A stretch of 64,000 nucleotides of DNA from an uncultured Patescibacteria group bacterium (GCA_947259245.1 CAMYLP010000003.1:27118-91117); one strand, 5' to 3'. Numbered from the stretch's first letter, positions 4,686 to 57,195 are shown. Program-made: numbers and translations. The notes: generated from the sequence alone by a model not told the origin.

Positions 4686-4781
4686 AGTAGTTTTTTACTG
4701 AGTTCTTCTAAAGCTGTCTTACGACCTGATAACGTACACAATTGTACCTTGCATACATGGGAGAGCAAGTCTGAAGTGTGC

Positions 4782-5201
4782 TTACGCGGCCACTTCCTCT
4801 TTCTTCCCCTCTTCTTTCGGCTCTTCAGCCTCCTTCTCTACTACCTCTTTTTGTGCTTCTTTGTCACCTTCTTTTGATGGTTCATCGGACGCCTCTTCGG
4901 CGACTTCCTCCTCAGCTTCCTTTTGGATAGGATTCTTCTTTGGGAGGACGTTCTTCTTGTCTCCTTTGATGACCTTGTGCGTGACAAGCAGGTTGTGTAG
5001 CGTGTCACTTACCTGCGCACCGTTCGAGATCCACTTTTTCACACTTTCTTCATTCACACTGAAAGCGTCAGTGTGCGGGTTATAGTTACCGATTACCTCA
5101 AGGTAGTTGCCACTCTGTGGTCCACGCGTGTGTTCCGTAACAACAACTCGGAATTCGGCGTGATTACGGCGCCCGACACGTTGTAGTCTGATGATTAACA
5201 T
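4782..5201 (-). CDS. rpsP: 30S ribosomal protein S16 with lysine/glutamate-rich C-terminal extension
   Basis: MLIIRLQRVGRRNHAEFRVVV.. S16 N-terminus; start trimmed to ATG at 5199-5201. Confidence 0.85.
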   Translation of the reverse strand: MLIIRLQRVGRRNHAEFRVVVTEHTRGPQSGNYLEVIGNYNPHTDAFSVNEESVKKWISNGAQVSDTLHNLLVTHKVIKGDKKNVLPKKNPIQKEAEEEVAEEASDEPSKEGDKEAQKEVVEKEAEEPKEEGKKEEVAA

Positions 5202-5252
5202 AGTGGCAGATACAGTACCAGATGAAATAGGGCTGGTCAACCTATGACGTGT

Positions 5253-5963
5253 TCATGCATTCCATCCTTTGGTCTCTAGTGCACATTGTGCGGCAGACTG
5301 CTCCGCCTCCTGTTTACTTCTTCCCGCGCCCTCAGCAACAAGTTCTTCATCAAGATACGCTCCAACGACGAATCGTTTATCGTGGTCAGGTCCATCTTCT
5401 GCAATGATGGCATATCGGGGCGTGATGGAGACATGTTCCTGCGCCTCTTCTTGGAAACGACTCTTACTATCTTGCCACAAGCGTTGTCTAACAACCTCGT
5501 CGACAAGAGGAAATATGTTTACCGCTATAAAACGCTGAGCATCATCATAGCCCATTCCGAGATATATCGCACCGATAACAGCCTCGAATGTGTTTGCGAG
5601 GATGTACTGTCGAGCACGACCCGTGTCTCGAGATTCTCCTCGGCTTAAGAGCAGAAGATCGTTCATGTCAAGTTTTGACGCTGCATCACTTATTGTGTTT
5701 GTGTTTACAAGAGCTGCTCTGTAGGAAGTTAACTCACCCTCAGTGCTGTCTGGATACTTGTCGTACAGAAATCTTGTGACGGCTAATTCCAATACCGCGT
5801 CACCTAAAAACTCCAGCCGCTCGTTATGCTCGATTGGATCGCCACGATGCTCATTGACGTAACTCCTGTGTGTAAACGCTGTACGGAGTAGTGACAGGTC
5901 CATGGTCGCGACCTCAAGTTTTTGTGCAAACTGTTGTAAGTGCTTTGTGTAGTCTTCATTCAT
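5253..5963 (-). CDS. rnc: ribonuclease III
   Basis: ERLEFLGDAVLELAVT RNase III signature plus C-terminal dsRBD (KQEAEQSAAQ). Confidence 0.9.
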   Translation of the reverse strand: MNEDYTKHLQQFAQKLEVATMDLSLLRTAFTHRSYVNEHRGDPIEHNERLEFLGDAVLELAVTRFLYDKYPDSTEGELTSYRAALVNTNTISDAASKLDMNDLLLLSRGESRDTGRARQYILANTFEAVIGAIYLGMGYDDAQRFIAVNIFPLVDEVVRQRLWQDSKSRFQEEAQEHVSITPRYAIIAEDGPDHDKRFVVGAYLDEELVAEGAGRSKQEAEQSAAQCALETKGWNA

Positions 5964-6021
5964 GTTTCTTGTAGAGCGTGTTGATACACGCTCGACGCAG
6001 TGCAGTCATGAGAGCTGACTG

Positions 6022-6957
6022 CTACTTTTTTTTGGCGTCCTGTGGGTTTAACAGTATGTTAATTGCCTTGGTAATGATGGTCAGAATGTCGTGGTAGAAG
6101 TTCAGCTCAAGTATGTCGGCAAGCTTGAACCAACGAGCGTCGTCCAATCCTCCCTTTTCTTCTAACACAATATCAGCAAAAGGCGCTTCGAGAAGAAAGT
6201 ACGTGACATGTTTGCGTATCTTACCCTTCTCAGGGTTGCTAGCCACATACTCATTCTCACCAAGTTTTTCTCTGAGGTCCGCATCAAGGCCAAGTTCTTG
6301 CTTTATCTCACGTATCGTACCTTGTTCTTCGGTTTCAGCGTCTTCTATTCCACCCTTGGGCAGTGTCCAGTGACCAAAGACATCGTGTACAAGTGCTACA
6401 TATACGTCATCATCATGCCGTGCGTACACGACAGCCCCACCCTTGCGCTCGACGGGCATTTGGTCATATGGTACCAGCGGATGTTTCTTTCTTTCCTTGC
6501 GCTTGCTCGTCTCATCCTTACCTGGTTCACCAAGCTCTTTATATACGGATCCAAGTACGCCGTTGATGAATCTCCCAGAGGATTCACCCCCGAAGTTCTT
6601 ACCAAGTTCTATTGCCTCATTAATTGCCACTTTGGCAGGAACCTCACTACGATCAGCAAAAAGAAGTTCAAATAAGCCGATACGCAGTATGTTGCGATCC
6701 ACCCGTGAAATTTTATCTAGCGGCCATTCCGGAGCAGCCTTAGTTATGACCGCGTCCAGATCATTTTGCTTTTGGAGTATACCATCCAACAATGCCGTCA
6801 TAAACGGCTTATCTTGACTGTCGGGAGCAAACTCTCCAATATTTCTTTCAAGTATGTTGTTCGTGGCCGGGGTATTGTCGGAATTATCTTCGAGGTTCAT
6901 GTCCCACTCGAAGAGTGTCTGCAGTACAATAGACCGAGATAGGTGCCTGTTTGACAT
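6022..6957 (-). CDS. nusB: NusB antitermination factor fused to C-terminal NUDIX hydrolase domain
   Basis: N-terminal ~150 aa NusB-like (ISRVDRNILRIGLFELLF, AINEAIELGK); C-terminal ~155 aa with Nudix box GGIEDAETEEQGTIREIKQELGL. Confidence 0.75.
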   Translation of the reverse strand: MSNRHLSRSIVLQTLFEWDMNLEDNSDNTPATNNILERNIGEFAPDSQDKPFMTALLDGILQKQNDLDAVITKAAPEWPLDKISRVDRNILRIGLFELLFADRSEVPAKVAINEAIELGKNFGGESSGRFINGVLGSVYKELGEPGKDETSKRKERKKHPLVPYDQMPVERKGGAVVYARHDDDVYVALVHDVFGHWTLPKGGIEDAETEEQGTIREIKQELGLDADLREKLGENEYVASNPEKGKIRKHVTYFLLEAPFADIVLEEKGGLDDARWFKLADILELNFYHDILTIITKAINILLNPQDAKKK

Positions 6958-7030
6958 TGTGCTAGAAAGTGCTGGTCGAGGCGCTTCGAAGTCCCATTAG
7001 TACACACGTTCCACCGGGGCTTCAAAAAGC

Positions 7031-7996: not shown

Positions 7997-10900
7997 ATGT
8001 CGACATTTACGCATCTCCACACACACTCGCACTACTCCCTCTTAGGAGCAGTTCCGAAGATACCGCCGCTCGTTGCACGCGCTAAGGAGTATGGATTCAC
8101 ATCACTGGCTCTTACGGACAATGGAGCTCTGTACGGTGCAGTTGAGTTCTATAAAGCATGTCGGAAGGAAAATATTAAGCCGATCATCGGTGTCGATGCC
8201 TACCTTGCGCCGAGAAGCCGAATCGACATGGAACGAGGCATTGACGATAAGCGAACGCGTCTTGTACTACTTGCTGAGAACAACACCGGTTACGTAAACC
8301 TCATACGACTGGTCACAGCATCGTACATGGAGGGATTCTTTGACAAGCCACGCATGGATCGCGAAGTACTTGAGAAGTGGCACGAGGGCGTCATTGCGAT
8401 ACTACCGTCATTCTCGGGAGAGCATATATCCGCCCTCCGTGGATCTGACATGGCAAAAGCGGTTGCCATTGTACGTTGGTATCAGGACACCTTCGGAAAA
8501 GACAATGTGTTCCTGGAACTCTCCCATCACTCTGAGATAGAGGGTCATGAGTATCTCCAGGAACAAATACAGCAGCTGTCGAGCGAGTCAGGCTCTGAAC
8601 TTGTTGCAGCGCACAACACGTACTACTTACATCCTGAGGACAGACTTGCACGCGAAACGATGCTAAAGATCAGCACCACCGGCTCACTAGAGGGAGAGGA
8701 TTATTATGAAGATGAGGACTTGTCATTTATCACTCCTGAGACTGCTGAAAAACTCTTTGCGAATGAGCCGGAAGCGCTTCGAAACACAGCGGCACTGGCT
8801 GAACGATGCAACGTACAGATAGAATTGGGCCACTGGTACTTCCCCGACTTCAAAATAGAATCAGGCCGTACGGCCGATGAAGAACTTCAGCACCTTGCAC
8901 AACGGGGTCTTGCGTGGAGGGGTATGGCGTATGAAGGAACAGTAAAGAAACGTTTGGATTACGAGTTGGACATCATTAGGTCCAAGGGTTACGCAGGATA
9001 CTTTCTTGCAGTGGGTGATCTACTGCGGGAAGCGCGAGAGAGAGGCATTCTGACGACAATACGTGGTTCTGTTGCAGGTTCTCTTACAACATACGTACTT
9101 GGCATAACGAACGTTGACCCGTTAAAGTTGAACCTGCCGTTCGAACGTTTCTTAAATCCACATCGTCCCTCTGCGCCTGATATTGATATGGACTATGCAG
9201 ATAACAGGCGAGACGAAATGATCGAGTATGCAAAGGATAAGTATGGTCATGACAATGTTGCTCAGATCGGAACGTTTGGCACGATGATGGCACGAGCGGT
9301 GGTACGGGACGTAGCACGAGCACTTGGCTACGCGTATGGTGTGGGCGACAAGATAGCAAAAGTAATACCGTTTGGGTCGCAAGGTTTTCCAATGACCATC
9401 GACCACGCTCTTGAAAGTGAAAAAGAGTTTGCTGCCCTCTACAAGAAGGACAAGGACGTACAGCGCATCATTGACCTTGCGAAGAAGATAGAAGGATGTG
9501 CCCGGCACGTAGGCGTGCACGCGGCTGGCGTCGTAATAGCCCCAAGTCCGCTGGACAACTATGTTCCCGTACAGCCAGACCCAAAAGGTGGCGGTAAACT
9601 GATTACACAGTACGACATGCATAGCGTAGGTGAAGATGGTGTTGGACTTCTCAAATTTGACTTTCTTGGCATTAAAAACCTTTCGATACTAGCTGACGCA
9701 ATCGAGCGTGTGAAGGACCGACATGGTGTCGAGGTAGATATTGAGAACATACCACTCGATGATGCACGGACGTATGACATGCTCGCACAGGGTGAGACGG
9801 GAGGCGTATTCCAGTTGAACGGAGCTGCAATGACACGGTATTTGAAGGAGCTCAGACCAACAAGGATCGAGGACATAAACGCCATGATCGCACTCTACCG
9901 GCCGGGTCCAATGAAAAACATTCCCGAATACATTGCACGTAAACAGGGTCGAAAGCCAGTTCGCTATTTCCATCCGCGGGTCGCCAGCTTTCTCGAGCCC
10001 TCGTACGGTATTCTTGTATATCAAGATGACCTTCTCTTTACTGCGCTAGAACTCGCTGGCTACAACTGGGAAACAGTAGACAAGTTTCGTAAGGCAGTTG
10101 GAAAAAAGATTCCAGCTGAAATGGCGAAACAGCATGTTAAGTTTGTTGAAGGTTGTATGGAGCACAGTGACATGTCAAGGCGTGATGCGGAGGGTGTCTG
10201 GGAGTTGTTTGAGCCGTTTCAGGGGTACGGTTTCAACAAGGCGCATGCGGCTAGTTACGGTAAGGTCGCGTACCAAACTGCGTACATGAAGGCGAACTAT
10301 CCTGTGGAGTATATGGCCGCAATACTTACGGCTGACTCTGGCGATATCGATAAGGTAGCGGAGGCAGTTGTGGAGTGCGAGCGGATGAATATTCGGGTGC
10401 TGAAACCAGATGTCAACCAGAGTTTTGATACATTTACGTGCGTGCAAAAGGACGGGAAGGATGCTATACGATTTGGACTCAGCTCGATCAAGAACTTTGG
10501 TGAAGGTATTGCGCATACGATCATACAGGAGCGTGAACAACACGGACCGTACAACACCATCGATGACCTTCTCATGCGTATTCAAAGCAGGAACCTGAAT
10601 AAAAAATCCCTGGAGTCTCTAATCAAGTGTGGTGCATTGGATTCCTTTAAAGTAAAGCGCGGTAGGTTGCTGAAATACATTGACGAGTTGTTGGCCTTCA
10701 ACAAAGAACAGCATCAGGAAGTGGCACAGGCATCGCTCTTCACCGGCGATGTAGGGGGCAACGTTCTATCAATACCCGAAGCACCGGAAGCGTCACTTCA
10801 GGACATGCTTTCTTGGGAGAAGGAGTTGCTCGGTCTATACGTGTCCGGACATCCTCTCGATGTACACAGGGATCGCCTTGAACGCCTTGGACAAACAATA

Positions 10901-11170
10901 CGTGGAGTTAAGAGCACGCCCAGTGGTGTTGAACAAGTGGTCGCCGGCATCCTGAGTGAGGTAAAACCCTTCACTACGAAAAAGGGTGATAAAATGGCAT
11001 TTCTGAAACTCTCAGATTACGATGACACGTTGGAAGCCGTTGCGTTCCCACGAACGTACACACAGTACCGTGACTTTCTAAAGAAGGACGGATGTGTCGC
11101 GTTCAGCGGTCGTGTTTCCGAGCGCAACGGTGAAACAAATTTTGTTGTAGAGAAAGTAAGGGCGCTGTAA
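7997..11170 (+). CDS. dnaE: DNA polymerase III alpha subunit (1057 aa)
   Basis: PHP domain N-terminus (HLHTHSHYSLLGAV), polymerase core (GVHAAGVVIAP, FDFLGIKNLS), OB fold C-terminus. Confidence 0.95.
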   Translation: MSTFTHLHTHSHYSLLGAVPKIPPLVARAKEYGFTSLALTDNGALYGAVEFYKACRKENIKPIIGVDAYLAPRSRIDMERGIDDKRTRLVLLAENNTGYVNLIRLVTASYMEGFFDKPRMDREVLEKWHEGVIAILPSFSGEHISALRGSDMAKAVAIVRWYQDTFGKDNVFLELSHHSEIEGHEYLQEQIQQLSSESGSELVAAHNTYYLHPEDRLARETMLKISTTGSLEGEDYYEDEDLSFITPETAEKLFANEPEALRNTAALAERCNVQIELGHWYFPDFKIESGRTADEELQHLAQRGLAWRGMAYEGTVKKRLDYELDIIRSKGYAGYFLAVGDLLREARERGILTTIRGSVAGSLTTYVLGITNVDPLKLNLPFERFLNPHRPSAPDIDMDYADNRRDEMIEYAKDKYGHDNVAQIGTFGTMMARAVVRDVARALGYAYGVGDKIAKVIPFGSQGFPMTIDHALESEKEFAALYKKDKDVQRIIDLAKKIEGCARHVGVHAAGVVIAPSPLDNYVPVQPDPKGGGKLITQYDMHSVGEDGVGLLKFDFLGIKNLSILADAIERVKDRHGVEVDIENIPLDDARTYDMLAQGETGGVFQLNGAAMTRYLKELRPTRIEDINAMIALYRPGPMKNIPEYIARKQGRKPVRYFHPRVASFLEPSYGILVYQDDLLFTALELAGYNWETVDKFRKAVGKKIPAEMAKQHVKFVEGCMEHSDMSRRDAEGVWELFEPFQGYGFNKAHAASYGKVAYQTAYMKANYPVEYMAAILTADSGDIDKVAEAVVECERMNIRVLKPDVNQSFDTFTCVQKDGKDAIRFGLSSIKNFGEGIAHTIIQEREQHGPYNTIDDLLMRIQSRNLNKKSLESLIKCGALDSFKVKRGRLLKYIDELLAFNKEQHQEVAQASLFTGDVGGNVLSIPEAPEASLQDMLSWEKELLGLYVSGHPLDVHRDRLERLGQTIRGVKSTPSGVEQVVAGILSEVKPFTTKKGDKMAFLKLSDYDDTLEAVAFPRTYTQYRDFLKKDGCVAFSGRVSERNGETNFVVEKVRAL

Positions 11171-11873: not shown

Positions 11874-12263
11874 ATGCGTCTGAACTGGAGTTCACGACGA
11901 GTGCTCACAGCGTACCTAACGTTGTTTGATGTAACCATCGATCCGATGAAAGATTTCTATTCCGCGATTACTATGCTCATAGAGACGTATCCGGATGAGA
12001 AGCCGCACATCGATGTATTGCTCGAACTACTCATATGCGAAGACGAAAATTGCGAGGGGTGCATAAGTACCCGACGCAGTAGGTTACGTGAAATTACGCC
12101 GGTGCAAATGTTTTTAGCGGGTGCGTGCGAACGTCGCTACAGACATAGGGGTGGCAGCTCGGAGAAGTTGTACGTACAAGAGTGCCTAGAAAAAATTTAC
12201 CGTGTTTTCGATTCCATGGACGAGTTTGATGACACTGATCACGTGGTCTGTAATGACACCTGA
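11874..12263 (+). CDS. hypothetical small Cys-rich protein (~129 aa)
   Basis: ATG 11874 preceded by AAAGGAGGGG SD (11861-11870); CEDENCEGC cluster; upstream part of the 245-aa ORF is antisense to the lipoprotein gene and rejected. Confidence 0.45.
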   Translation: MRLNWSSRRVLTAYLTLFDVTIDPMKDFYSAITMLIETYPDEKPHIDVLLELLICEDENCEGCISTRRSRLREITPVQMFLAGACERRYRHRGGSSEKLYVQECLEKIYRVFDSMDEFDDTDHVVCNDT

Positions 12264-50456: not shown

Positions 50457-51125
50457 CTACCAGGTTACAGGATCTATACCGTTCTGTTTCATGTACTCAT
50501 TCGCCTTGCTGAAATGTCTGCAGCCAAAGAAGCCAGCCCTTGCGCTGTACGGCGAAGGGTGTGCTGCCTCCAACACGAGGTGTTTTCTACGGTCAATGTG
50601 TTCGCCCTTTGCCTTAGCGTAGTTCCCCCAGAGCATGAAAACGAGGTGCTCTCGCTCATGGTTAAGCAGCCGCACAACAGCGTCAGTAAAGGTCTCCCAG
50701 CCCTTACCCTGATGACTTCCGGGCTGGCCCGCGCGCACCGTAAGTGTGGCATTGAGGAGCAAAACGCCCTCATGTGCCCAGTGATCGAGATTGCCGCTCT
50801 GCGGCTGTTCTATACCAAGGTCGTCGTGAAGCTCCTTGTAAATGTTTTGAAGAGAAGGCGGTATGGAGACGCCCTCAGGTACGGAGAAACACAGGCCATG
50901 TGCTTGTCCTCTCCCATGGTATGGGTCTTGTCCGAGTATCACCACCTTTACCTTGTCGAAAGGACATGCGTCAAATGCGTGAAACACATCCTTCGGTGCA
51001 GGATATATCGGTCCTGTCGTGTACTCTTCCCGAACAAACGTGGTGAGGTCACGCCAGTACTCCTTTTCAAACTCGTCTGCAAGTGCGGCTTTCCACGCTG
51101 GTGCCATGCGTACGTCAGTTGCCAT
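50457..51125 (-). CDS. ung: uracil-DNA glycosylase (family 1)
   Basis: GQDPYHGRGQAHGLCFSV motif; start trimmed to MATDV. Confidence 0.9.
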   Translation of the reverse strand: MATDVRMAPAWKAALADEFEKEYWRDLTTFVREEYTTGPIYPAPKDVFHAFDACPFDKVKVVILGQDPYHGRGQAHGLCFSVPEGVSIPPSLQNIYKELHDDLGIEQPQSGNLDHWAHEGVLLLNATLTVRAGQPGSHQGKGWETFTDAVVRLLNHEREHLVFMLWGNYAKAKGEHIDRRKHLVLEAAHPSPYSARAGFFGCRHFSKANEYMKQNGIDPVTW

Positions 51126-51146
51126 ATCAACGTATCGTACCATACA

Positions 51147-51177
51147 CAAAAACCACCAATGGGTGGTTTTTATTTTT
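51147..51177. terminator. bidirectional terminator (AAAAACCACC-aatg-GGTGGTTTTT)
   Basis: 10-bp stem flanked by A/T runs, after HhH gene. Confidence 0.55.
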
Positions 51178-51190
51178 TATGAAGCCCTCC

Positions 51191-51598
51191 TTAGTGTGAC
51201 ACTGCGGGCTTCAGAGTCTTTGCCTCCTTGACCCACTTTTCAACCACGGCTGCACTCGGAGTACGGTCAACGAGCTTTCGTGCTGCATTCTTCTCCTCCA
51301 TCGCTGCTGCAAGGTTTTCTGCATTGCGCGTAGCGAGTTCCTTCACTGTGTCAACTCCGGCCTGCTCGAGAAGGTCAGCGTACTCTTCACCAACACCATT
51401 TATACGCATAAGATCTGCGCGGTTCACCCACTCAAGGAGTCGCTTCTCGGATACTCCCGCTTCAGTGGCAACCCCTTCACGTCCTTTTTTGTCACCACAG
51501 CGACGAAGCAAGTCCTCGGTTGTCTGGATATCCGCGCTACGCAGCTTATCTGCGTACTCTTTACCAATACCCTCTATCTCTTCAATTTTGTACGACAT
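51191..51598 (-). CDS. hypothetical tandem helix-hairpin-helix protein (DUF4332-like)
   Basis: Two IEGIGKEYADKL / INGVGEEYADLL HhH repeats. Confidence 0.5.
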   Translation of the reverse strand: MSYKIEEIEGIGKEYADKLRSADIQTTEDLLRRCGDKKGREGVATEAGVSEKRLLEWVNRADLMRINGVGEEYADLLEQAGVDTVKELATRNAENLAAAMEEKNAARKLVDRTPSAAVVEKWVKEAKTLKPAVSH

Positions 51599-51642
51599 AG
51601 TTGTTGTTGTTTATGTACTAATAGTTAAGAAATAAGTATGGT

Positions 51643-52065
51643 CTACTGTACTGTTTTTGGCAGACCTTCACAAGCCACACCGTCCTTGTCCCGGTCGAGC
51701 CCGTGTACGTCGTTCTCTTCGAAGCCGCAAGTCTCGAAGGTTTTCTGCGCCTCCTCCTGCGTTGCGAAGTCGTCACAATTGTAGCTTGCCCTGTCACACA
51801 TAGCGCCAATAATGAGGTTACCCTCCTCGGTGCGTTCGATTTTGCTTTCCTCTAGCGAGCCGGTTTCAATGACCTTGCCGAGGTCATAGTCCGTATTAGC
51901 CATCTCAAGGCCAAGTGCCGCGAGCAAAACAACAGCTATGCCGATCATCCAGAGTCGTGTCTTCTCAAAGAAGAACGCAATGACAGCCACAACAATAAGG
52001 AGAATGATAATGATAGTGAGGCGACTTTTTTTGCTGCGCCGCCACTTCGCTATTTCTTTTTCCAT
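51643..52065 (-). CDS. membrane-anchored Excalibur (extracellular Ca-binding) domain protein
   Basis: N-terminal TM; C-terminal [13 protein letters not shown] Excalibur motif. Confidence 0.65.
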
Positions 52066-52110
52066 AGGATTTTAGTATACAGACACTGTACCAACTTGGC
52101 GAGTCGCATT

Positions 52111-53394
52111 TCACGCAACATGTGGTGATACTGTTGGGATATCAGCCCAACTACTAGTGTAGCGAGGCGAAAGTGTATTGCTTTTTGGATGCCAGCTTTT
52201 CTCTGTAGTACATCGCAACTCCTCGGCACCAAGCTGTACGGCCCGGTCACCAAAGCGATGTCGTAATGCGTCAAGCGCATGCATAAGTGGCTTCCTCGCC
52301 CCACTCTCCTCGCCAAAGATCGTCCGCGGCATGACGCTCTCCTCTGGAACAATATCCTTCACCATCACACCGGCTTTAGCGTACGGAAAACCTTTTCTAT
52401 ACATGCGCTCGAGTACGCTGAGTGCCGTCTGCACGATGGTGATCGTGTCGTTCGTGTGATGAGTGAGCGTGTCACCATCGTAGGCACTGTAGCGATGTGT
52501 GGTGTGACGAGAGGTACGAATCGTCACATACACCTCGCGTGCCGCGGCACCCTCAACGCGGAGCACCTCCGCCGCCTTGCGCGCGTGGTGTGCTATCGCC
52601 TGCTTGAGACCTGACAGATCGTAAACGGGTCTTCCGAAGGACTGTGAATGAAGGAGTGACTTTCTAAGTGTCGTATCCTCTCCAACAGTAAAACAAGGCG
52701 TACCTCGGAGCTCATAGACGGTGCGCAAACCCCGTACGCTCAGTCGCTTGCGTAGCCACGTATCATCCATGCGGATAAGCTTTCCGGCCGTTGTAACACC
52801 AAGGTCCTTCAACACGGGTCCCAGACGAAATCCAATACCCCACACCTCATCGACCGGGAGCTCCTCAAGTGCAACATTGCGCACGTAGGGCTCAAGAAGA
52901 AGGTTGACCCCACGCCCGCCGTACTTTGGCTTGGCGAAGTGCGTCGCTACTTTTGCAAGGGTCTTTGTATGTGCTACACCCACTGAGACCGGTATGCCGG
53001 TCTCACGTATGACGGCCGTGTGCAGCGCGTGCGCTTGTTGTGCAATATCTCCATCGCGTCCGTCGAGAGCCACAAACGCCTCATCAACCGAGTATGCTTC
53101 TACCGTATCTGCATACCGGCGAAGTACCGACATGATGCGGCGGGACATGTCCCGGTACAGCGCAAAATTGCTAGAGAAAATACTCACGCCGTGCTGATCG
53201 CAACGCTCACGTACTTTAAAGTATGGTTCACCCATAGTGAGTCCAAGTGCCTTCGCCTCTTCAGAACGTGAAATAACACACCCGTCATTGCTCGAAAGCA
53301 CAATGACCGGTTTGTTTCTGAGCTCAGGGCGAAATAACCGCTCGCACGAGACAAAAAAATTATTTGCATCTATCAACACCGTGTATATTGACAT
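52111..53394 (-). CDS. Y-family translesion DNA polymerase (UmuC/DinB-like)
   Basis: IDANNFFVSCERL (Y-family DxD-equivalent start), SRSEEAKALG, little-finger region; 427 aa. Confidence 0.85.
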   Translation of the reverse strand: MSIYTVLIDANNFFVSCERLFRPELRNKPVIVLSSNDGCVISRSEEAKALGLTMGEPYFKVRERCDQHGVSIFSSNFALYRDMSRRIMSVLRRYADTVEAYSVDEAFVALDGRDGDIAQQAHALHTAVIRETGIPVSVGVAHTKTLAKVATHFAKPKYGGRGVNLLLEPYVRNVALEELPVDEVWGIGFRLGPVLKDLGVTTAGKLIRMDDTWLRKRLSVRGLRTVYELRGTPCFTVGEDTTLRKSLLHSQSFGRPVYDLSGLKQAIAHHARKAAEVLRVEGAAAREVYVTIRTSRHTTHRYSAYDGDTLTHHTNDTITIVQTALSVLERMYRKGFPYAKAGVMVKDIVPEESVMPRTIFGEESGARKPLMHALDALRHRFGDRAVQLGAEELRCTTEKSWHPKSNTLSPRYTSSWADIPTVSPHVA

Positions 53395-53440
53395 ATAAGT
53401 ATTAAATGGTATCGTTAAGATCGGAATAAGGAGGTGCGCT

Positions 53441-53626
53441 ATGAGTATTGCAGACTTATTACACCGGAAAGACAGTCAGCATGAAGCCGAGGAAGACATG
53501 CTCGGCGTCGAAGCAAGCGTGGAGATTAAAAACCTGCCGCAAGAGGAGCACCATACCAACGACAGCGACAGTGCGGGGCTGGACGTAGTCGAACATTACA
53601 GGACGGCAGTACAGCCGATCGAATAA
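53441..53626 (+). CDS. hypothetical small acidic protein (61 aa) with perfect Shine-Dalgarno
   Basis: TAAGGAGGT at 53427-53435, 5-nt spacer to ATG; lies between umuD'-like and polY genes on the opposite strand. Confidence 0.4.
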   Translation: MSIADLLHRKDSQHEAEEDMLGVEASVEIKNLPQEEHHTNDSDSAGLDVVEHYRTAVQPIE

Positions 53627-53680
53627 AAAGAACATTATGAGAAGAGAGACCCCAAGCACGCTACTTGGGGTCTTTTGTAC

Positions 53681-54010
53681 TTACATCCTCCGTGCAAGTG
53701 CAATGACCGAACCCCAGTACTCTGCGGCCTCCCCGTCTACCAAGCGTGCCACTACTAACTCCCCTTCCTGCACGAACACCGAAAGCGTGCCCGTGCAAGG
53801 AGGAACAGCCCTGTCCACCACCAAAACATCATCCCTTCGTATGTCGAGCTTGCCACAGACGTGGAGGTCTCCACCCACGCGTACGAAGAAAGTTGAGGTC
53901 GGATGCGCCACAAAGTGCGCGTCAAGTGAGAGAGGGTTCTTGTACTCGTGTTCGTCACCCTCCTCTCCGAGTTCACGTGGTGATGTTCGTATAAAGGAAA
54001 CTGGCTTCAT
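53681..54010 (-). CDS. UmuD'-like S24-fold protein lacking the catalytic Ser/Lys dyad and the N-terminal cleavage arm
   Basis: Aligns to LexA C-domain in same window: VKGESM -> VGGDLH (Ser->Leu), TVKYL -> VVARL (Lys->Ala); 9 nt after preceding gene. Confidence 0.6.
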   Translation of the reverse strand: MKPVSFIRTSPRELGEEGDEHEYKNPLSLDAHFVAHPTSTFFVRVGGDLHVCGKLDIRRDDVLVVDRAVPPCTGTLSVFVQEGELVVARLVDGEAAEYWGSVIALARRM

Positions 54011-54019
54011 AACACAAGC

Positions 54020-55480
54020 TTACTGAGGCATTGAAATGTGAGCGCTCTGCAGAAGTGCCTCGTCTCTGCTGGTCAGTTCGCGTACCGTTACCTTTGGACG
54101 GCGTTTGCCCAGCTCTCGCGTAAGTATCTTGTATGCGTCGTAATCAAAACGAAACTGTGCCGGAATGAATTCCTCCCACTCGGTACCATTGAAATGAAGT
54201 GCGGCGAGCAGTCGCCACTGGTCGACAATGAAGAGCTCTCCCGTACCATCCACACGCCGCTCGTCGATACCCACAGGCCCTGTGTATGGCCACACGTGCA
54301 TACGGTGCGCCTCGAACGCCTCGCGAAAACGTCTGTTGTAATGGCGGTGCTTCTCCTTTCCTATGCACGCACCCCGACACTGCTCTAATTGTTGTGCAAA
54401 ACACGGCGCCTTTGGAGATGATGCTTTTTCTATACCAAGGAGCTGTGGGCAAAGCTCGTACTCCTTTGCAAGCTGACCGAGTACATCACGTGCCTGCTTT
54501 TTTGTTTTGAAGATGGCAGCAATGTTCTTTTCCTCCCCCAACTCTATGGTATCCGCGTGTGAGAGCTCCGTTACATGATACCCTGCGTCGTTTATATCTT
54601 CGCGTACCAGACAGAGTGCGTGCCGCTCACGCGCCCGTACGTTGTAGACAGGCCCTCGGTCCTTGATCAGGTGCGACTCGAGGAGAAGTGCGCCGACCTC
54701 ACCTGCTGTCTCCCTATACTCAATACGCCGTATCTCGGAGAGCATGTCTTTTCCGCGTCCCGAGAGCCCGTCTTTTGCAAAATGTGAGCGGACCCTCGTG
54801 CGTATTTTGCGACTCTTTCCAATATAAAGAAGTTCGTCATCCTTGCCGTGGAAAAAGTAGACACCTGCACCTTCCGGTAGACTCTGCACCATCTCCTCTT
54901 TTACATGCATCGGTAGCCGTCGCACACGTACCTGTTCCTGCATGACCTCGTGCACATGCTCTATACTTAGTTCTTTGTAGGCAACTTGTAAGAACTGCCA
55001 AAGCACCTTTGCGTCATCAAGTGCTCGGTGCCGGTCACCGGGATCGAGGTCATACCGTTTGATGATGCTGTCGAGATTGTGCCGACGCAACTTCGGGTAG
55101 AGCGCCCTAGAGAGTTTTGCGGTGCAGAGGTACGGGTATGAAAAGGTGATGCCAAGGCGTCGGAACTCCTCAGAGAGGAAGCCGTAGTCAAAAGGAGCAT
55201 TGTGTGCAACGAAGAGCGCTCCCTCAAGAAACTCTGCAACCTCAAGCGCCACCTCGTCGAAGGTGGGCGCGCGTACAAGCATCGAGCTGGCAATACCCGT
55301 AAGTGATGTAATAAATGCCGGTACCGGCATGCCGGGGTCAACGAACGTACGGTACTCCCGTACGATCTCACCCCGCTCCACACGCACAAGACCTACTTCC
55401 ATCACCCGATGATGTCGGGGGCTCGTACCCGTCGTCTCAAGGTCTATAAACACCAGTGGTGTTTTATCGTCTACTTGCAT
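54020..55480 (-). CDS. DnaQ-type 3'-5' exonuclease fused to GIY-YIG / UvrC N-terminal-like (Cho-like) nuclease
   Basis: Exo I FIDLETTG, Exo II FVAHNAPFDYGFL, Exo III HRALDDAKV; GVYFFHG..LLYIGKS GIY-YIG; UvrC-like CFAQQLEQCRGAC. Confidence 0.8.
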   Translation of the reverse strand: MQVDDKTPLVFIDLETTGTSPRHHRVMEVGLVRVERGEIVREYRTFVDPGMPVPAFITSLTGIASSMLVRAPTFDEVALEVAEFLEGALFVAHNAPFDYGFLSEEFRRLGITFSYPYLCTAKLSRALYPKLRRHNLDSIIKRYDLDPGDRHRALDDAKVLWQFLQVAYKELSIEHVHEVMQEQVRVRRLPMHVKEEMVQSLPEGAGVYFFHGKDDELLYIGKSRKIRTRVRSHFAKDGLSGRGKDMLSEIRRIEYRETAGEVGALLLESHLIKDRGPVYNVRARERHALCLVREDINDAGYHVTELSHADTIELGEEKNIAAIFKTKKQARDVLGQLAKEYELCPQLLGIEKASSPKAPCFAQQLEQCRGACIGKEKHRHYNRRFREAFEAHRMHVWPYTGPVGIDERRVDGTGELFIVDQWRLLAALHFNGTEWEEFIPAQFRFDYDAYKILTRELGKRRPKVTVRELTSRDEALLQSAHISMPQ

Positions 55481-55495
55481 ACAGGCTCAAAGACA

Positions 55496-55580
55496 TAAAA
55501 ACACACGTGTCTGTGTGAGAGACTAAGACTTGGGCAAACGCCCCGGAGTGGTCTCTCATGCAGACATGTGTGTTTTTGAA
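55496..55580. repeat. 17-bp inverted repeat (AAAAACACACGTGTCTG / CAGACATGTGTGTTTTT) with nested GAGAGAC/GTCTCTC repeat; terminator/attenuator-like, between lexA and exonuclease gene
   Basis: On the minus-strand RNA forms a long stem followed by U5 only ~17 nt before the exonuclease ATG. Confidence 0.6.
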
Positions 55581-55588
55581 ATCTACAT

Positions 55589-56155
55589 TTATGCATATGT
55601 TCTGATAACGCTCCGCACAACACCGCCAACCTCAAGTGACTGCTCGGGATGTAGGTCCGGGTACTCTTCGTTTGCCGCTTCAAGGTACTTACGCCCGCGT
55701 TTCTCACGCAGGTACTTAACCGTCCATTCACCATCAATGCTTGCAACCACGATGTCATTCAATCGTGCGGTCTCTGTGCGCTCTACCAAAAGAAGATCCC
55801 CCTCATAAATACCCGCGTCTATCATAGACTCTCCCTTCACGCGCAATAAATAGAGTTTATCCCGACTCCCTAAGAGGAGCTCGTCCATGGTGACGTGGTC
55901 AAGAGCTATTTCCTCTGCGGGTGTTGGGAACCCCGCTTCGATGTAACCCACCAGTGGCACCTCGTCGCCTAGAGCAAGCGGCACAAGCTTGCCGCGTCCA
56001 TCCTTACGGACAACGCCTGCGTCTATCAGTTTTTCAACCACCTTTGCAACGGCGTTCTTTGAGGCAAAGCCGAAAAGAGCACACATCTCGCTGTAGCCCG
56101 GCATTCGTTTGTGCTTTCGATAAAAAGTCTGCAGCTGTTTCTTATACTGTTCCAT
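55589..56155 (-). CDS. lexA: LexA repressor
   Basis: N-terminal wHTH; VKGESM catalytic Ser and TVKYL Lys; AG cleavage-site context. Confidence 0.9.
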   Translation of the reverse strand: MEQYKKQLQTFYRKHKRMPGYSEMCALFGFASKNAVAKVVEKLIDAGVVRKDGRGKLVPLALGDEVPLVGYIEAGFPTPAEEIALDHVTMDELLLGSRDKLYLLRVKGESMIDAGIYEGDLLLVERTETARLNDIVVASIDGEWTVKYLREKRGRKYLEAANEEYPDLHPEQSLEVGGVVRSVIRTYA

Positions 56156-56181
56156 ATATCTACTATACCGAGGTTGCTGTG

Positions 56182-56448
56182 CTACGCCACACCAAAGCCG
56201 AGTACACGGCTCATCACGCCGCGACTGAGACTGCGGTGCACGGGACTCTTCACGCGCCGCAGGGTCTTGGCGCGCTTAGGGACCAGTATTGTATCTTCCT
56301 CGTTCATACTTCGGAGTGTCGCGAGAAGCTCTTTATGGTGGCGAGCTTCCTTCTGGAAGGACTGTCCCCTGATGATCTTGCGGTCAATGCGGTCGTTTAT
56401 CTTTTCGAGTTCCTTGTGGATCTCTTTAGAAAGTGTGCTTTTGCTCAT
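56182..56448 (-). CDS. hypothetical basic 88-aa protein, first gene of the LexA-box-controlled transcript
   Basis: ATG 38 nt downstream of LexA box/promoter; no TM; helical, K/R-rich. Confidence 0.45.
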   Translation of the reverse strand: MSKSTLSKEIHKELEKINDRIDRKIIRGQSFQKEARHHKELLATLRSMNEEDTILVPKRAKTLRRVKSPVHRSLSRGVMSRVLGFGVA

Positions 56449-56477
56449 ATGCCTGTGCGTTACCCTTGTATGCTTTC

Positions 56478-56506
56478 ATTGTAGGTGAACGTTCGTTCAC
56501 CGTCAA
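56478..56506 (-). promoter_or_regulatory. LexA-repressed promoter: TTGACG-17-TACAAT with Cheo-type LexA box GTGAAC-gaac-GTTCAC filling the spacer
   Basis: rc of cgtcaa 56501-06 (-35), attgta 56478-83 (-10); GAAC-N4-GTTC palindrome 56485-56500. Confidence 0.6.
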
Positions 56507-56607
56507 GCACAGGTGTCTGTATATGATGTTTATACGTACGTTACTGTAATTCTGTCAAACTTCCCGCCCCGGGTTCGTTCGCTCGATACATCATCGTTTG
56601 TGTTACT

Positions 56608-57195
56608 ATGTGTGACATGAAAAAGTCAACGCTGACAACGGCACTTATCCTATCACTGACGCTCAACGTGCTGTTGTATCATCAGCTTTCACAGAAGGAC
56701 TCGCCTATCAACGACCCCGGCTCGAATGCACCGACGAAGGTAATAACGGAGGTAGAACCACCTACCCTTCCACGGTCAGGAAGCTATCCTTTCATTCGGG
56801 TAGTAGACGGGGATACCATAACTGTTGGTATCGAAGGTCGCACGGAGTTTGTTCGTCTTATCGGCATCGACTCTCCCGAGCCGAATGACCCGGGTGGTGC
56901 CGAATGTTATGCGAATGAGGCAACGAACCACATGCGCGAGCTTACCCGTACCGGCACTGTTGCACTCTACTTCGATGAATCACAAGGTACCCGTGATACA
57001 TATGGACGACTGCTCGCGTACGTTGAACTGCCTGATGGTACTGATATTGGCGCGGCAATGGTGCGGGATGGATATGCACGAGAGTACACGTACGATGAGC
57101 GATACGAGCGCGCAAACGTCTACCGTGCTGCAGAGTTGGAAGCGATCGAGGCAGAACGTGGACTGTGGGCGCCATCTGCGTGCAACACAAACTAG
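56608..57195 (+). CDS. membrane-anchored staphylococcal-nuclease-like (thermonuclease) protein
   Basis: N-terminal TM; VVDGDTITV..RLIGIDSPE..YGRLLAYV SNase motifs. Confidence 0.8.
   Translation: MCDMKKSTLTTALILSLTLNVLLYHQLSQKDSPINDPGSNAPTKVITEVEPPTLPRSGSYPFIRVVDGDTITVGIEGRTEFVRLIGIDSPEPNDPGGAECYANEATNHMRELTRTGTVALYFDESQGTRDTYGRLLAYVELPDGTDIGAAMVRDGYAREYTYDERYERANVYRAAELEAIEAERGLWAPSACNTN

What the first reader, a model, noticed from the sequence alone, without database searches (positions are those of the whole stretch)
52111..56510. Complete LexA-controlled SOS/mutagenesis cassette in a reduced genome
Six co-directional minus-strand elements form a compact damage-response module. They are a LexA-box promoter, an 88-aa basic ORF, lexA, a DnaQ-exonuclease/GIY-YIG (Cho-like) fusion, a catalytically dead UmuD'-like protein and a Y-family polymerase. 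The architecture departs from classic umuDC, imuA-imuB-dnaE2 and B. subtilis yolD-uvrX cassettes. It pairs a proofreading/incision nuclease with a pre-activated UmuD' mimic and a translesion polymerase, all next to the repressor. In an organism that has shed the N-termini of many core proteins, retaining this inducible mutagenesis module is notable. I know of no description of this exact combination.
Basis: partly seen in the sequence, partly recalled or inferred. Interest (0 to 1): 0.75.

Follow-up and report, generated by a model that had tools for sequence, protein, structure and literature searches.

The report
SOS repair operon with uncleavable UmuD
A small-genome (Patescibacteria) bacterium keeps a DNA-damage-inducible gene cluster whose parts are all of known kinds, but the helper protein of its error-prone polymerase has lost the self-cutting switch that normally restrains mutagenesis.

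Summary
On the minus strand of 52111-56510 lie a strong promoter with an exact TGAAC-N4-GTTCA palindrome in its spacer and five ORFs:
- an 88-aa basic ORF
- a LexA with an intact Ala-Gly site and Ser/Lys dyad
- a DnaQ-type exonuclease fused to a Cho-like GIY-YIG nuclease
- a 109-aa UmuD-fold protein lacking the cleavage site, Ser and Lys
- a UmuC-like polymerase

The same gene order recurs in five other distinct loci from relatives, and the operator is conserved in all of them.

The cluster is modular. The widespread core is small ORF plus lexA, found at over 120 metagenome loci. The nuclease fusion and the umuD-like/umuC pair are each present or absent independently.

In this genome the cluster is not one tight operon. 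A 27-bp-arm hairpin follows lexA. A hairpin and an opposite-strand 61-aa ORF separate the umuD-like gene from umuC. No second operator exists, so LexA control of umuC is inferred, not shown.

Every component has precedents: the Cho-exonuclease fusion, SOS control of it, P1 HumD, YolD, and a 2017 Patescibacteria SOS study. I rate it a new variant of a known kind, of moderate interest.

The parts
56478..56506 (-). Sigma-70-type promoter: -35 TTGACG, 17-nt spacer, -10 TACAAT
   Evidence: Best promoter-like site in 51500-57000 (10 of 12). The block TTGAC(G/A)GTGAAC-N4-GTTCAC(C/T)TA is conserved in nine loci while the flanks diverge.
56486..56499 (.). LexA operator, TGAACGTTCGTTCA on the + strand (TGAAC-N4-GTTCA palindrome) inside the promoter spacer
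   Evidence: Exact match (0.10 expected per window). The arms are conserved and the N4 varies in L001, L003, L085-L089, L091 and L093. The promoter-plus-operator pattern is found at 120 or more metagenome loci.
56182..56448 (-). 88-aa basic protein of unknown function: helical hairpin plus disordered basic tail. Conserved first gene of the lexA operon.
   Evidence: pI 11.0. 51-67% identical in L001, L003, L085, L086, L088 and L089. About 60 full-length and many shorter homologues; those with source names are all Patescibacteria; no Pfam family. Model shows helices 3-27 and 32-54 with pLDDT above 90 and no PDB match. In L131 it has its own operator, 2.7 kb from lexA.
55589..56155 (-). LexA repressor, 188 aa: N-terminal wHTH, Ala74-Gly75 cleavage site, Ser110, Lys147
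   Evidence: Peptidase_S24 91 bits; TIGR00498 108.8 bits against a cut-off of 110.95. Aligns with T. maritima LexA 3k2z over residues 8-169. Motif positions.
55497..55577 (.). Inverted repeat with 27-nt arms (89% complementary, 27-nt loop), flanked by A5 and T5, between lexA and the nuclease gene. Possible attenuator, bidirectional terminator, RNA processing site or small inserted element.
   Evidence: RNA fold -43.7 kcal/mol, z = -6.2. Single copy in the window. Absent from relatives, whose lexA-nuclease gaps are 3-48 nt. Only a sub-threshold miRNA match in Rfam.
54020..55480 (-). 486-aa fusion of a DnaQ/DEDDh 3'-5' exonuclease (D13, E15, D98, H151, D156) with a Cho/UvrC-N-like GIY-YIG endonuclease (G206-V-Y, Y219-I-G, E268, N280) and a four-Cys motif (C344, C360, C368, C372)
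   Evidence: RNase_T 127 bits, GIY-YIG 33 bits, NF007833 Cho 199 bits, NF005906 278 bits. PDB matches to the PolC exonuclease and the UvrC GIY-YIG domain. Invariant residues. Homologues carry UvrC_M and Cho_C.
53681..54010 (-). 109-aa UmuD-fold pseudo-peptidase: no Ala/Cys-Gly site, Leu49 in place of Ser60, Ala88 in place of Lys97, about 20 residues deleted before the last strand, conserved N-terminal arm MKPVSFIRTSP
   Evidence: Pfam S24 24.7 bits; NF007621 43.7 bits. Alignments. Model pLDDT 78.7; best PDB matches are UmuD/UmuD' (8gmt, 1ay9, 1umu; TM 0.57-0.63). dN 0.39-0.46 with dS saturated.
53648..53672 (.). Hairpin (9-bp GC-rich stem, 7-nt loop). On the + strand it is followed by TTTTG and so fits a terminator for the 61-aa ORF. 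On the - strand it is followed by TCTCTTCTC.
   Evidence: Read directly from the sequence. It did not reach the threshold of the terminator scan.
53441..53626 (+). Opposite-strand 61-aa acidic ORF with SD AAGGAGGTG and a TTGACA-16-TATCGT promoter-like site. It interrupts the umuD-like/umuC junction. Whether it is a real gene is uncertain.
   Evidence: pI 4.5. No Pfam hit. Opposite-strand ORFs of 55-67 aa sit at the same place in L085, L086 and L088, with only a weak shared C-terminal motif R(S/T)A.DP.
52111..53394 (-). 427-aa UmuC-like Y-family polymerase with intact catalytic D9, D104, E105 and a UmuC-type C-terminus (LSPRYT)
   Evidence: IMS 138 bits, IMS_C 72 bits, DUF4113 59 bits. Best NCBIfam match is UmuC, 335.5 bits against a cut-off of 431. 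Motifs.

Best explanation
This is the LexA-autoregulated SOS locus of a Patescibacteria (CPR, Parcubacteria-like) chromosome. It is built from three modules.

1. Core module: a strong promoter whose spacer is the LexA operator TGAAC-N4-GTTCA, driving an 88-aa basic protein of unknown function and lexA. This core is widespread in the group.
2. Nuclease module: a DnaQ-exonuclease/Cho fusion.
3. Polymerase module: a UmuD-like/UmuC pair.

Proposed working, all inferred:
- LexA sits between the -35 and -10 hexamers and shuts the promoter.
- DNA damage produces RecA filaments, LexA cuts itself at Ala74-Gly75 using Ser110 and Lys147, and transcription rises.
- The nuclease fusion would nick 3' of a lesion with its GIY-YIG domain and resect with its 3'-5' exonuclease.
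- The UmuC-like polymerase, with the UmuD-fold partner, would copy across lesions.
- The partner has lost its cleavage site and both catalytic residues, so the RecA-triggered proteolytic checkpoint of E. coli Pol V cannot operate. Control would rest on transcription, and possibly on RecA binding. Its invariant, disordered N-terminal arm would be the polymerase-contacting element.

In this genome a strong hairpin after lexA and a convergent small ORF before umuC probably lower or uncouple expression of the distal genes.

Shown here: the domains, the residues, the conserved operator, the conserved synteny and the modularity. Inferred: induction, co-transcription beyond lexA, all enzyme activities, and the role of the 88-aa protein.
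For: - Domains and residues.
- Operator: an exact palindrome inside the best promoter. Its arms are conserved while N4 and the flanks vary in nine loci. The same promoter-operator block occurs at 120 or more metagenome loci, nearly always just upstream of the small ORF and/or lexA.
- Operon nature in relatives: the gaps in L001 are 3, 37, 1 and 16 nt.
- Conserved order: L001/2, L003/4, L085, L086, L087.
- Modularity: no umuD/umuC in L088 and L089; no nuclease fusion in L091/92; core only in L093. None of about 26 metagenome loci with at least 3 kb downstream carries the fusion.
- Link between this LexA type and the fusion across phyla: divergent pairs with GAAC-N4-GTTC boxes in proteobacterial loci L042, L045, L067 and L074, and nuclease-lexA-umuD-umuC in L012.
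- UmuD fold of the 109-aa protein.
- Purifying selection on the 109-aa protein: open frame and invariant residues; dN 0.39-0.46 where dS is saturated.
- Chromosomal setting among rpoB, dnaE, gyrB, dnaK and aminoacyl-tRNA synthetase genes. No close relatives on viral contigs.
Against: - There is only one operator. No GAAC-N4-GTTC with one mismatch or fewer lies in the lexA-nuclease or umuD-like/umuC gaps here or in relatives.
- The hairpin after lexA (-43.7 kcal/mol, with A5 and T5 flanks) could terminate transcription.
- A hairpin and an opposite-strand ORF separate the umuD-like gene from umuC. umuC has no recognisable Shine-Dalgarno sequence, and no predicted promoter of its own.
- recA and uvrAB are not in the window, so the inducer and the partners of the Cho domain are unverified.
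- In E. coli (established knowledge) non-cleavable UmuD does not support mutagenesis, so the dead partner might be inhibitory rather than activating.
- Curated NCBIfam cut-offs are missed for LexA (narrowly), UmuC, UmuD and Cho.
Confidence: 0.7

Rival explanations
1. Only the small ORF and lexA (and perhaps the nuclease and umuD-like genes, by read-through) are SOS-controlled in this genome. umuC is an independent, LexA-free transcription unit that merely lies nearby.
For: - A 286-nt gap with a terminator-like hairpin and a convergent ORF that has a strong SD and a promoter-like site.
- No operator near umuC.
- This junction is variable in relatives, with inserted genes in L003, L085, L086 and L087.
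Against: - In L001 the five genes are separated by 1-37 nt.
- No promoter-like site for umuC was found on the minus strand.
- umuD-like followed by umuC, in that order and orientation, is kept in every locus that has both.
Confidence: 0.3
2. The 109-aa protein is a decaying remnant of umuD with no function, and the polymerase works alone like DinB.
For: - It is the fastest-evolving gene of the five (dN 0.39-0.46).
- It has lost the catalytic dyad, the cleavage site and about 20 residues.
- Its Pfam score is barely above threshold.
Against: - The frame is open and the length conserved across relatives only 50-56% identical.
- 24 columns are invariant, including M1, K2, V4, F6, R8, T9 and P11 of the arm.
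- dS is saturated while dN stays below 0.5.
- The core is confidently modelled and UmuD-like.
- The polymerase keeps the DUF4113/LSPRYT C-terminus typical of UmuC, the region reported to bind UmuD' (PMC12926913).
Confidence: 0.1
3. The uncleavable UmuD-like protein locks the polymerase in the non-mutagenic 'uncleaved UmuD' state, acting as a checkpoint or brake rather than as an activated UmuD'.
For: - The N-terminal arm is kept, not removed.
- In E. coli (established knowledge) uncleavable UmuD is non-mutable and full-length UmuD has checkpoint-like roles.
Against: - The arm (26 residues before the LSLD motif) is shorter than that of UmuD (37) and unrelated in sequence.
- Uncleaved partners such as YolD/YqjX are proposed to be functional subunits, using an N-terminal arm that contacts the polymerase (PMC6511836 and PMC12926913).
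Confidence: 0.2
4. The cluster is a recently acquired mobile island, from a phage or an integrative element, rather than a chromosomal SOS locus.
For: - umuDC homologues are common on mobile elements (56 phage records with UmuD' homologues).
- The umuD-like/umuC and nuclease modules are present or absent between relatives.
Against: - G+C is 0.52-0.53 against 0.48-0.53 in most of the window.
- The flanks (SNase upstream; UDG, grpE, dnaK, dnaJ downstream) are conserved in all relatives.
- No integrase or flanking repeats were seen in the ORF list or the called genes of the loci; repeats were searched formally only in 55470-55600.
- No close homologue on viral contigs or in phage records.
Confidence: 0.05

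Closest known systems
E. coli umuDC operon (Pol V, UmuD'2C-RecA)
   Same: - LexA-repressed.
- An S24-fold accessory gene directly upstream of a UmuC-type Y-family polymerase.
- The polymerase has DUF4113 and an LSPRYT C-terminus and is 38% identical to E. coli UmuC.
   Different: - The accessory protein has no Cys/Ala-Gly site and no Ser60/Lys97, so RecA-mediated self-cleavage is impossible.
- About 20 residues of the fold are deleted.
- The pair sits downstream of lexA and a nuclease gene, and in this genome is split by an opposite-strand ORF.
Bacteriophage P1 HumD (naturally shortened, already activated UmuD')
   Same: An accessory subunit that needs no proteolytic activation (PMC7092418).
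   Different: - HumD starts at about the UmuD' N-terminus, whereas this protein keeps about 13 extra, highly conserved residues.
- The NCBIfam HumD model scores 32 bits against a cut-off of 120.
- Whether HumD keeps the Ser/Lys dyad was not checked here.
B. subtilis YolD-UvrX and YqjX-YqjW
   Same: A small accessory protein that is not cleaved, encoded next to a Y-family polymerase, SOS-regulated, and proposed to contact the polymerase through an unstructured N-terminal arm (PMC6511836 and PMC12926913).
   Different: No match to the Pfam YolD family. The fold and sequence here are UmuD/S24-like.
Cho-Pol III epsilon ('exonuclease-Cho') fusion proteins of beta-proteobacteria, actinobacteria and Bacteroidetes
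   Same: - Same two-domain architecture.
- More than 1,800 homologues and 528 or more genome loci.
- The fusion was tabulated, and sequential incision and resection proposed (PMC1839093).
- A GIY-YIG exonuclease was predicted to be SOS-regulated in Bacteroidetes (PMC8565304).
   Different: Here it lies inside the lexA operon, between lexA and the umuD-like gene. In the 80 genome loci fetched (mostly Proteobacteria) it usually stands alone, sometimes divergent from a lexA-like gene.
Patescibacteria LexA regulon (Sanchez-Osuna, Barbe and Erill 2017, Environ Microbiol 19:3465)
   Same: The same superphylum and the same regulator. GW2011_GWA2_43_11, a public groundwater genome (GCA_000998805.1), carries small ORF-lexA-umuD-like-umuC (L091).
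   Different: The paper could not be read here, so I cannot say whether it describes the small ORF, the dead UmuD or the nuclease fusion in the operon. My recollection that it reports a GAAC-N4-GTTC-type motif and a small regulon centred on translesion synthesis comes from memory only.
[quoted passage not shown]
   Same: The window's LexA has a UmuD-type cleavage region (EAG|FPTPAEE). Its C-terminal domain scores as well against UmuD models as against LexA.
   Different: The N-terminal domain aligns with the canonical LexA wHTH, and the gene is autoregulated through a Gram-positive-type palindrome. UmuDAb is described in PMC8565304.

Membership tests
LexA repressor | S24 C-terminal domain with an Ala-Gly cleavage site and a Ser-Lys dyad | tested here: met
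   Ala74-Gly75, Ser110 (GESM) and Lys147 (TVKYL). Peptidase_S24 91 bits.
LexA repressor | N-terminal LexA-type winged helix-turn-helix | tested here: inconclusive
   No Pfam LexA_DNA_bind hit at E < 0.1. However, residues 8-60 align with the N-domain of T. maritima and E. coli LexA, and TIGR00498 aligns residues 13-187.
LexA repressor | Curated equivalog score (TIGR00498, cut-off 110.95) | tested here: not met
   108.8 bits, 2 bits short.
LexA repressor | Palindromic operator in its own promoter (autoregulation) | tested here: met
   TGAAC-N4-GTTCA lies between -35 and -10 and is conserved in nine loci and at 120 or more metagenome loci. Binding itself was not tested.
LexA repressor | RecA-filament-stimulated self-cleavage | not testable with these tools
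   Biochemical. recA is not in the window.
UmuD (Pol V autoproteolytic subunit) | S24/UmuD' fold | tested here: met
   The four best PDB matches are UmuD/UmuD' chains, TM 0.57-0.63. Pfam S24 24.7 bits against a cut-off of 23.3.
UmuD (Pol V autoproteolytic subunit) | Cys/Ala-Gly cleavage site | tested here: not met
   The aligned position reads E-L-G-E-E, and the whole clade has A-L-G-E or similar.
UmuD (Pol V autoproteolytic subunit) | Catalytic Ser60 and Lys97 | tested here: not met
   Leu49 and Ala88 here. Every cassette-linked homologue lacks both.
UmuD (Pol V autoproteolytic subunit) | Encoded directly upstream of umuC | tested here: met
   The order umuD-like then umuC holds in the window, L001, L003, L085, L086, L087 and L091, although often with inserted genes between them.
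UmuD (Pol V autoproteolytic subunit) | Curated NCBIfam score (NF007621, cut-off 110) | tested here: not met
   43.7 bits.
HumD / pre-truncated UmuD' | N-terminus at the position of UmuD Gly25; curated score (NF051876, cut-off 120) | tested here: not met
   About 13 residues precede the Gly25-equivalent position. 32.2 bits.
YolD-like accessory proteins | Match to the Pfam YolD family | tested here: not met
   No hit at E < 0.1.
UmuC (Pol V catalytic subunit) | Y-family palm, fingers and little finger with catalytic Asp/Asp/Glu | tested here: met
   IMS 138 bits and IMS_C 72 bits. D9, D104 and E105 present.
UmuC (Pol V catalytic subunit) | UmuC-type C-terminal region (DUF4113) | tested here: met
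   DUF4113 58.9 bits.
UmuC (Pol V catalytic subunit) | Curated NCBIfam score (NF002955, cut-off 431) | tested here: not met
   335.5 bits. It is the best-scoring family by far, with DinB models at 175 bits or less.
Cho / exonuclease-Cho fusion | DEDDh exonuclease motifs | tested here: met
   D13, E15, D98, H151 and D156 are invariant in 31 homologues. RNase_T 127 bits.
Cho / exonuclease-Cho fusion | GIY-YIG catalytic motif and a Cho-like C-terminal region | tested here: met
   GIY-YIG 33 bits. The Cho model aligns residues 182-464 at 199 bits, below its equivalog cut-off of 367. UvrC_M and Cho_C are recorded for close homologues.
Cho / exonuclease-Cho fusion | UvrAB-dependent 3' incision | not testable with these tools
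   Biochemical. uvrA and uvrB are not in the window.
imuA-imuB-dnaE2 mutagenesis cassette | Presence of ImuA (RecA-like), an inactive Y-family ImuB and DnaE2 | tested here: not met
   None of the five ORFs matches. The Y-family protein is catalytically intact. The dnaE at 7997-11170 is 41 kb away.

The most novel reading that the evidence does not exclude
In this Parcubacteria-like clade, Pol V-type mutagenesis has dispensed with the proteolytic checkpoint. A UmuD-fold pseudo-peptidase with a new, invariant N-terminal arm would serve as a constitutively competent accessory subunit. It would work downstream of the co-expressed exonuclease-Cho nuclease in a coupled incise-resect-fill pathway. 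The conserved 88-aa helical-hairpin protein would be a previously unrecognised Patescibacteria-specific SOS effector, for example a division or replication inhibitor.

A more speculative extension: the UmuD-like C-terminal fragment released when this type of LexA is cleaved (it starts GFPTPAEE) could itself serve as a UmuD' in the many loci where lexA is followed directly by a Y-family polymerase with no umuD.
Probability: 0.2. Interest if true: 0.65.

Novelty: new variant of a known kind. Interest (0 to 1): 0.4.

Why it matters
- It shows that an ultra-small-genome bacterium keeps an inducible translesion and repair locus, and that the second safety catch on Pol V (UmuD self-cleavage) can be lost while the partner protein stays under selection. 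That bears on how mutagenesis is restrained outside model organisms.
- It points to a conserved small protein, under the same operator as lexA at well over a hundred loci, whose function is unknown.
- It shows a recurrent link, across phyla, between one LexA type, the GAAC-N4-GTTC operator and the exonuclease-Cho fusion nuclease.
- None of this overturns current understanding. Each piece has a precedent.

Tried and rejected
- Exact-sequence look-ups of the window's nuclease fusion and of P0121 gave no contig. Cluster look-ups gave no names, so the source organism is not identified beyond 'NCBI contig of 101,537 bp'.
It was useful for showing breadth but not for synteny in the clade.
- The profile for the 88-aa family was contaminated by an unrelated MazG-like ORF from L087. 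Hits of 100 aa with no identity value must be ignored.
- dN/dS could not be computed because dS is saturated in nearly all comparisons.
- The fold search of the 88-aa model found only generic helical hairpins. The afdb50 library was unavailable.
- The alignment of the umuD-like/umuC gap with L085 showed no conserved block.
- Rfam gave only a sub-threshold miRNA-family match to the hairpin.
- The 2017 Patescibacteria SOS paper and the 1999 HumD paper are not held.
- Phage and viral-contig searches found no close relative of the dead UmuD.
- The idea that the proteobacterial lexA-like/nuclease pairs belong to imuA-imuB-dnaE2 cassettes was checked in L045 and not supported.

Full report
**1. What is there**

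The minus strand of 52111-56510 carries five ORFs of 88, 188, 486, 109 and 427 aa.

- The 188-aa protein has Peptidase_S24 at 91 bits and the LexA equivalog TIGR00498 at 108.8 bits (cut-off 110.95).
- The 486-aa protein has RNase_T at 127 bits, GIY-YIG at 33 bits and the Cho model at 199 bits over residues 182-464.
- The 109-aa protein has Peptidase_S24 at 24.7 bits (cut-off 23.3) and the UmuD model at 43.7 bits.
- The 427-aa protein has IMS, IMS_C and DUF4113, with UmuC as by far the best NCBIfam model (335.5 bits; DinB models 175 or less).

Upstream of the 88-aa ORF lies the best sigma-70-like site of the region, TTGACG-17-TACAAT. Its spacer contains an exact GAACGAACGTTC. The longer palindrome TGAAC-N4-GTTCA occurs twice in the window against 0.10 expected.

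**2. Residues**

- LexA keeps Ala74-Gly75, Ser110 and Lys147. It aligns with T. maritima LexA from residue 8 to 169, including the DNA-binding domain.
- The nuclease fusion keeps the DEDDh residues, the GIY-YIG motif and four invariant cysteines spaced C-x15-C-x7-C-x3-C. From memory, this spacing resembles the Fe-S-binding cysteines reported for UvrC.
- The polymerase keeps D9, D104 and E105 and a UmuC-type C-terminus.
- The 109-aa protein aligns with UmuD, but Ser60 is Leu49, Lys97 is Ala88, and the Cys-Gly site reads Leu-Gly-Glu. About 20 residues before the last strand are missing.
- Its AlphaFold model (pLDDT 78.7, core above 85, N-terminal 28 residues disordered) finds UmuD/UmuD' as the best solved structures.
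- 'Catalytically dead UmuD-like protein' is therefore correct.

**3. Is the arrangement conserved?**

Yes. The closest homologues of the fusion protein (60-77% identical) come from metagenomes and MAGs. More distant homologues (about 41-44% identical) carry source names of Parcubacteria, Adlerbacteria or the Patescibacteria group.

Five other distinct loci have the same order:
- L001 and L002
- L003 and L004 (GCA_964531785.1)
- L085
- L086
- L087 (GCA_041908795.1)

In L001 the gaps are 3, 37, 1 and 16 nt, so it is a plain five-gene operon. The flanks are also conserved: a secreted SNase upstream on the other strand, and UDG, grpE, dnaK and dnaJ downstream.

The operator with its -35 and -10 hexamers is a clear phylogenetic footprint. 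The arms are invariant while N4 and the surrounding sequence vary across nine loci.

**4. The cassette is modular**

- L088 and L089 have small ORF-lexA-nuclease, then UDG, with no umuD or umuC.
- L091/L092 (Parcubacteria GW2011_GWA2_43_11) have small ORF-lexA-umuD-like-umuC with no nuclease fusion.
- L093 has only a short form of the small ORF plus lexA.
- L090 has a canonical 256-aa LexA divergent from the nuclease gene.

A metagenome scan with the promoter-operator pattern hit its limit at 120 loci. Of the 80 read:
- most show operator, then a short homologue of the small ORF, then lexA, and nothing else;
- about a dozen show operator, then lexA, then a Y-family polymerase;
- none of about 26 with at least 3 kb downstream carries the fusion gene.

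L131 has two operators. One precedes the small ORF alone. The other, 2.7 kb away, precedes lexA and a polymerase. The small ORF is therefore an SOS gene in its own right.

Its family has about 60 full-length members plus many shorter ones. Those that carry a source name are all Patescibacteria. It has no Pfam family. The model is a confident helical hairpin followed by a disordered basic tail, with no structural match. Its function is unknown. A division or replication inhibitor, or a modulator of RecA or LexA, are only guesses by analogy with other SOS regulons.

**5. This genome is less compact than its relatives**

- Between lexA and the nuclease gene there is an inverted repeat with 27-nt arms, flanked by A5 and T5. 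It folds at -43.7 kcal/mol, z = -6.2.
- It is unique in the window and absent from relatives.
- Between the umuD-like gene and umuC there are 286 nt. They hold a GC-rich hairpin (53648-53672) and a plus-strand 61-aa acidic ORF with SD AAGGAGGTG and a promoter-like site.
- Opposite-strand ORFs of 55-67 aa sit at the same junction in L085, L086 and L088, but are barely similar.
- No second operator and no minus-strand promoter-like site were found for the nuclease gene or umuC.
- LexA control is therefore well supported for the small ORF and lexA, likely by read-through for the nuclease and umuD-like genes, and uncertain for umuC.

**6. The dead UmuD-like family**

- All cassette-linked homologues lack the dyad and the cleavage site. 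Their nearest active relatives keep AAGFPAP, GDSM and VVKRL.
- The N-terminal arm MKPVSFIRTSP is nearly invariant. It is modelled as disordered.
- UmuD' and YolD/YqjX are proposed to insert an unstructured N-terminal arm into the polymerase (PMC12926913). I therefore infer that this arm is the functional contact.
- dS is saturated for nearly all comparisons, while dN is 0.39-0.46 for this gene. That is the highest of the five but far from neutral.
- A profile search of 1.84 billion cluster representatives found nine proteins at E < 1e-30.
- Among the best 150 representatives, 61 single-domain proteins lack Ser/Lys, and 18 are tandem proteins with a dead first copy and an active second copy.
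- Loss of catalysis in UmuD-like proteins is therefore not unique to this clade, although the profile favours such sequences and no genomic context is available for them.

**7. The nuclease fusion elsewhere**

- The fusion is widespread: more than 1,800 homologues and 528 or more genome loci, among them Burkholderiales, Marinobacter, Chitinophagales and Syntrophorhabdales.
- It was already tabulated as a 'Cho-polIII fusion', with a proposed sequential incision-resection role (PMC1839093).
- A GIY-YIG exonuclease was predicted to be SOS-regulated in Bacteroidetes (PMC8565304).
- In 80 genome loci, mostly proteobacterial, it usually stands alone.
- In L042, L045, L067 and L074 it is divergent from a lexA-like gene, with GAACGATCGTTC or GAACGAACGTTC palindromes between them.
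- L012 has nuclease-lexA-like-umuD(active)-umuC.
- The pairing of this LexA type, this operator and this nuclease is thus recurrent across phyla.

**8. Setting**

- The window is chromosomal. It contains rpoB, dnaE, gyrB, pheT, dnaK and aminoacyl-tRNA synthetase genes.
- G+C of the cluster is like its surroundings.
- Nothing similar is found on viral contigs or in phage records.

**9. Verdict**

- It is best described as a lineage-specific, modular variant of a LexA-autoregulated umuDC-type SOS locus.
- The points of real interest are the uncleavable UmuD-fold partner with a new conserved arm, and the conserved small SOS protein of unknown function.
- 'Pre-activated UmuD' mimic' is a hypothesis with a known precedent, P1 HumD (PMC7092418), not something the sequence shows.
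- A paper on the Patescibacteria SOS network exists (cited) but could not be read. Part of this may therefore already be described.

Noticed in passing
window 11881-11894 (ORF 11874-12263, + strand): A second exact TGAAC-N4-GTTCA (TGAACTGGAGTTCA) lies in codons 3-7 of a 129-aa ORF. The ORF has a strong SD (AAGGAGG) and a TTGCAC-18-TATAGT promoter-like site upstream, and no Pfam match. It could be a further LexA target or a chance match (0.10 expected per window).
   Followed up: partly
window 55497-55577: An inverted repeat with 27-nt arms, flanked by A5 and T5, lies between lexA and the nuclease gene (-43.7 kcal/mol, z -6.2). It is single-copy in the window and absent from relatives. It could be a terminator or attenuator, a processing site, or a small inserted element.
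   Followed up: partly
window 53441-53626 (+); L085 7845-8042 (-); L086 8157-8360 (-); L088 7493-7660 (-): Small acidic ORFs of 55-67 aa on the opposite strand sit at the same junction downstream of the nuclease or umuD-like genes in four genomes. They share only a weak C-terminal R(S/T)A.DP motif. It is unclear whether they encode a real protein.
   Followed up: partly
L042, L045, L067, L074 (about 6900-7000 or 4020-4140); L012 6995-10789: In proteobacterial MAGs a short lexA-like gene is divergent from the exonuclease-Cho gene, with one or two GAAC-N4-GTTC palindromes between them. This is the same motif as in Patescibacteria and differs from the CTGT-N8-ACAG box that I recall for E. coli-type LexA in this group. 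L012 has nuclease-lexA-like-umuD(active)-umuC. This suggests a cassette-specific second LexA.
   Followed up: partly
proteins P0273, P0274, P0276, P0279, P0281, P0283-P0285 and others: Proteins of about 250 aa carry two tandem S24 domains. The first copy has lost Ser/Lys and the second keeps them (18 of the best 150 representatives). There are also 61 single-domain dead S24/UmuD-like proteins. No genomic context is available for them.
   Followed up: no
window 55589-56155; L101 about 4620-6633 and about 11 similar metagenome loci: This LexA type has a UmuD-like cleavage region (EAG|FPTPAEE or EAG|FPSPAEE) and a C-terminal domain that scores as UmuD. In about a dozen loci the same operator precedes lexA followed directly by a Y-family polymerase with no umuD. 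This raises the untested idea that the cleaved LexA C-terminal fragment could act like UmuD'.
   Followed up: partly
L086 7470-7940; L091 7332-7802: The longer dead UmuD-like proteins carry an insertion with C-x2-C-G in the arm region. It could be a zinc-binding or vestigial cleavage-site motif.
   Followed up: no
window 50457-52065 (-); L001 9066-9773: Co-directional genes follow directly downstream of umuC: an Excalibur-domain membrane protein, a DUF4332/HhH protein and a UDG-superfamily glycosylase. In L001 the UDG gene starts 9 nt after umuC, so the repair operon may extend beyond the reported coordinates.
   Followed up: partly
window 56507-56560 (upstream of the -35): Two further blocks are conserved among relatives upstream of the lexA promoter: GAC(G/A)GAATTAC(A/T)GTA and TAT(C/A)CACAG. 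They may be the divergent SNase promoter or another binding site.
   Followed up: no
L003 5539-5910 and 8031-8498; L087 7953-9018: The lexA/nuclease and umuD-like/umuC junctions are hot spots for inserted genes in relatives (23S_rRNA_IVP, UCP014422, DUF4395 and a 163-aa ORF).
   Followed up: no
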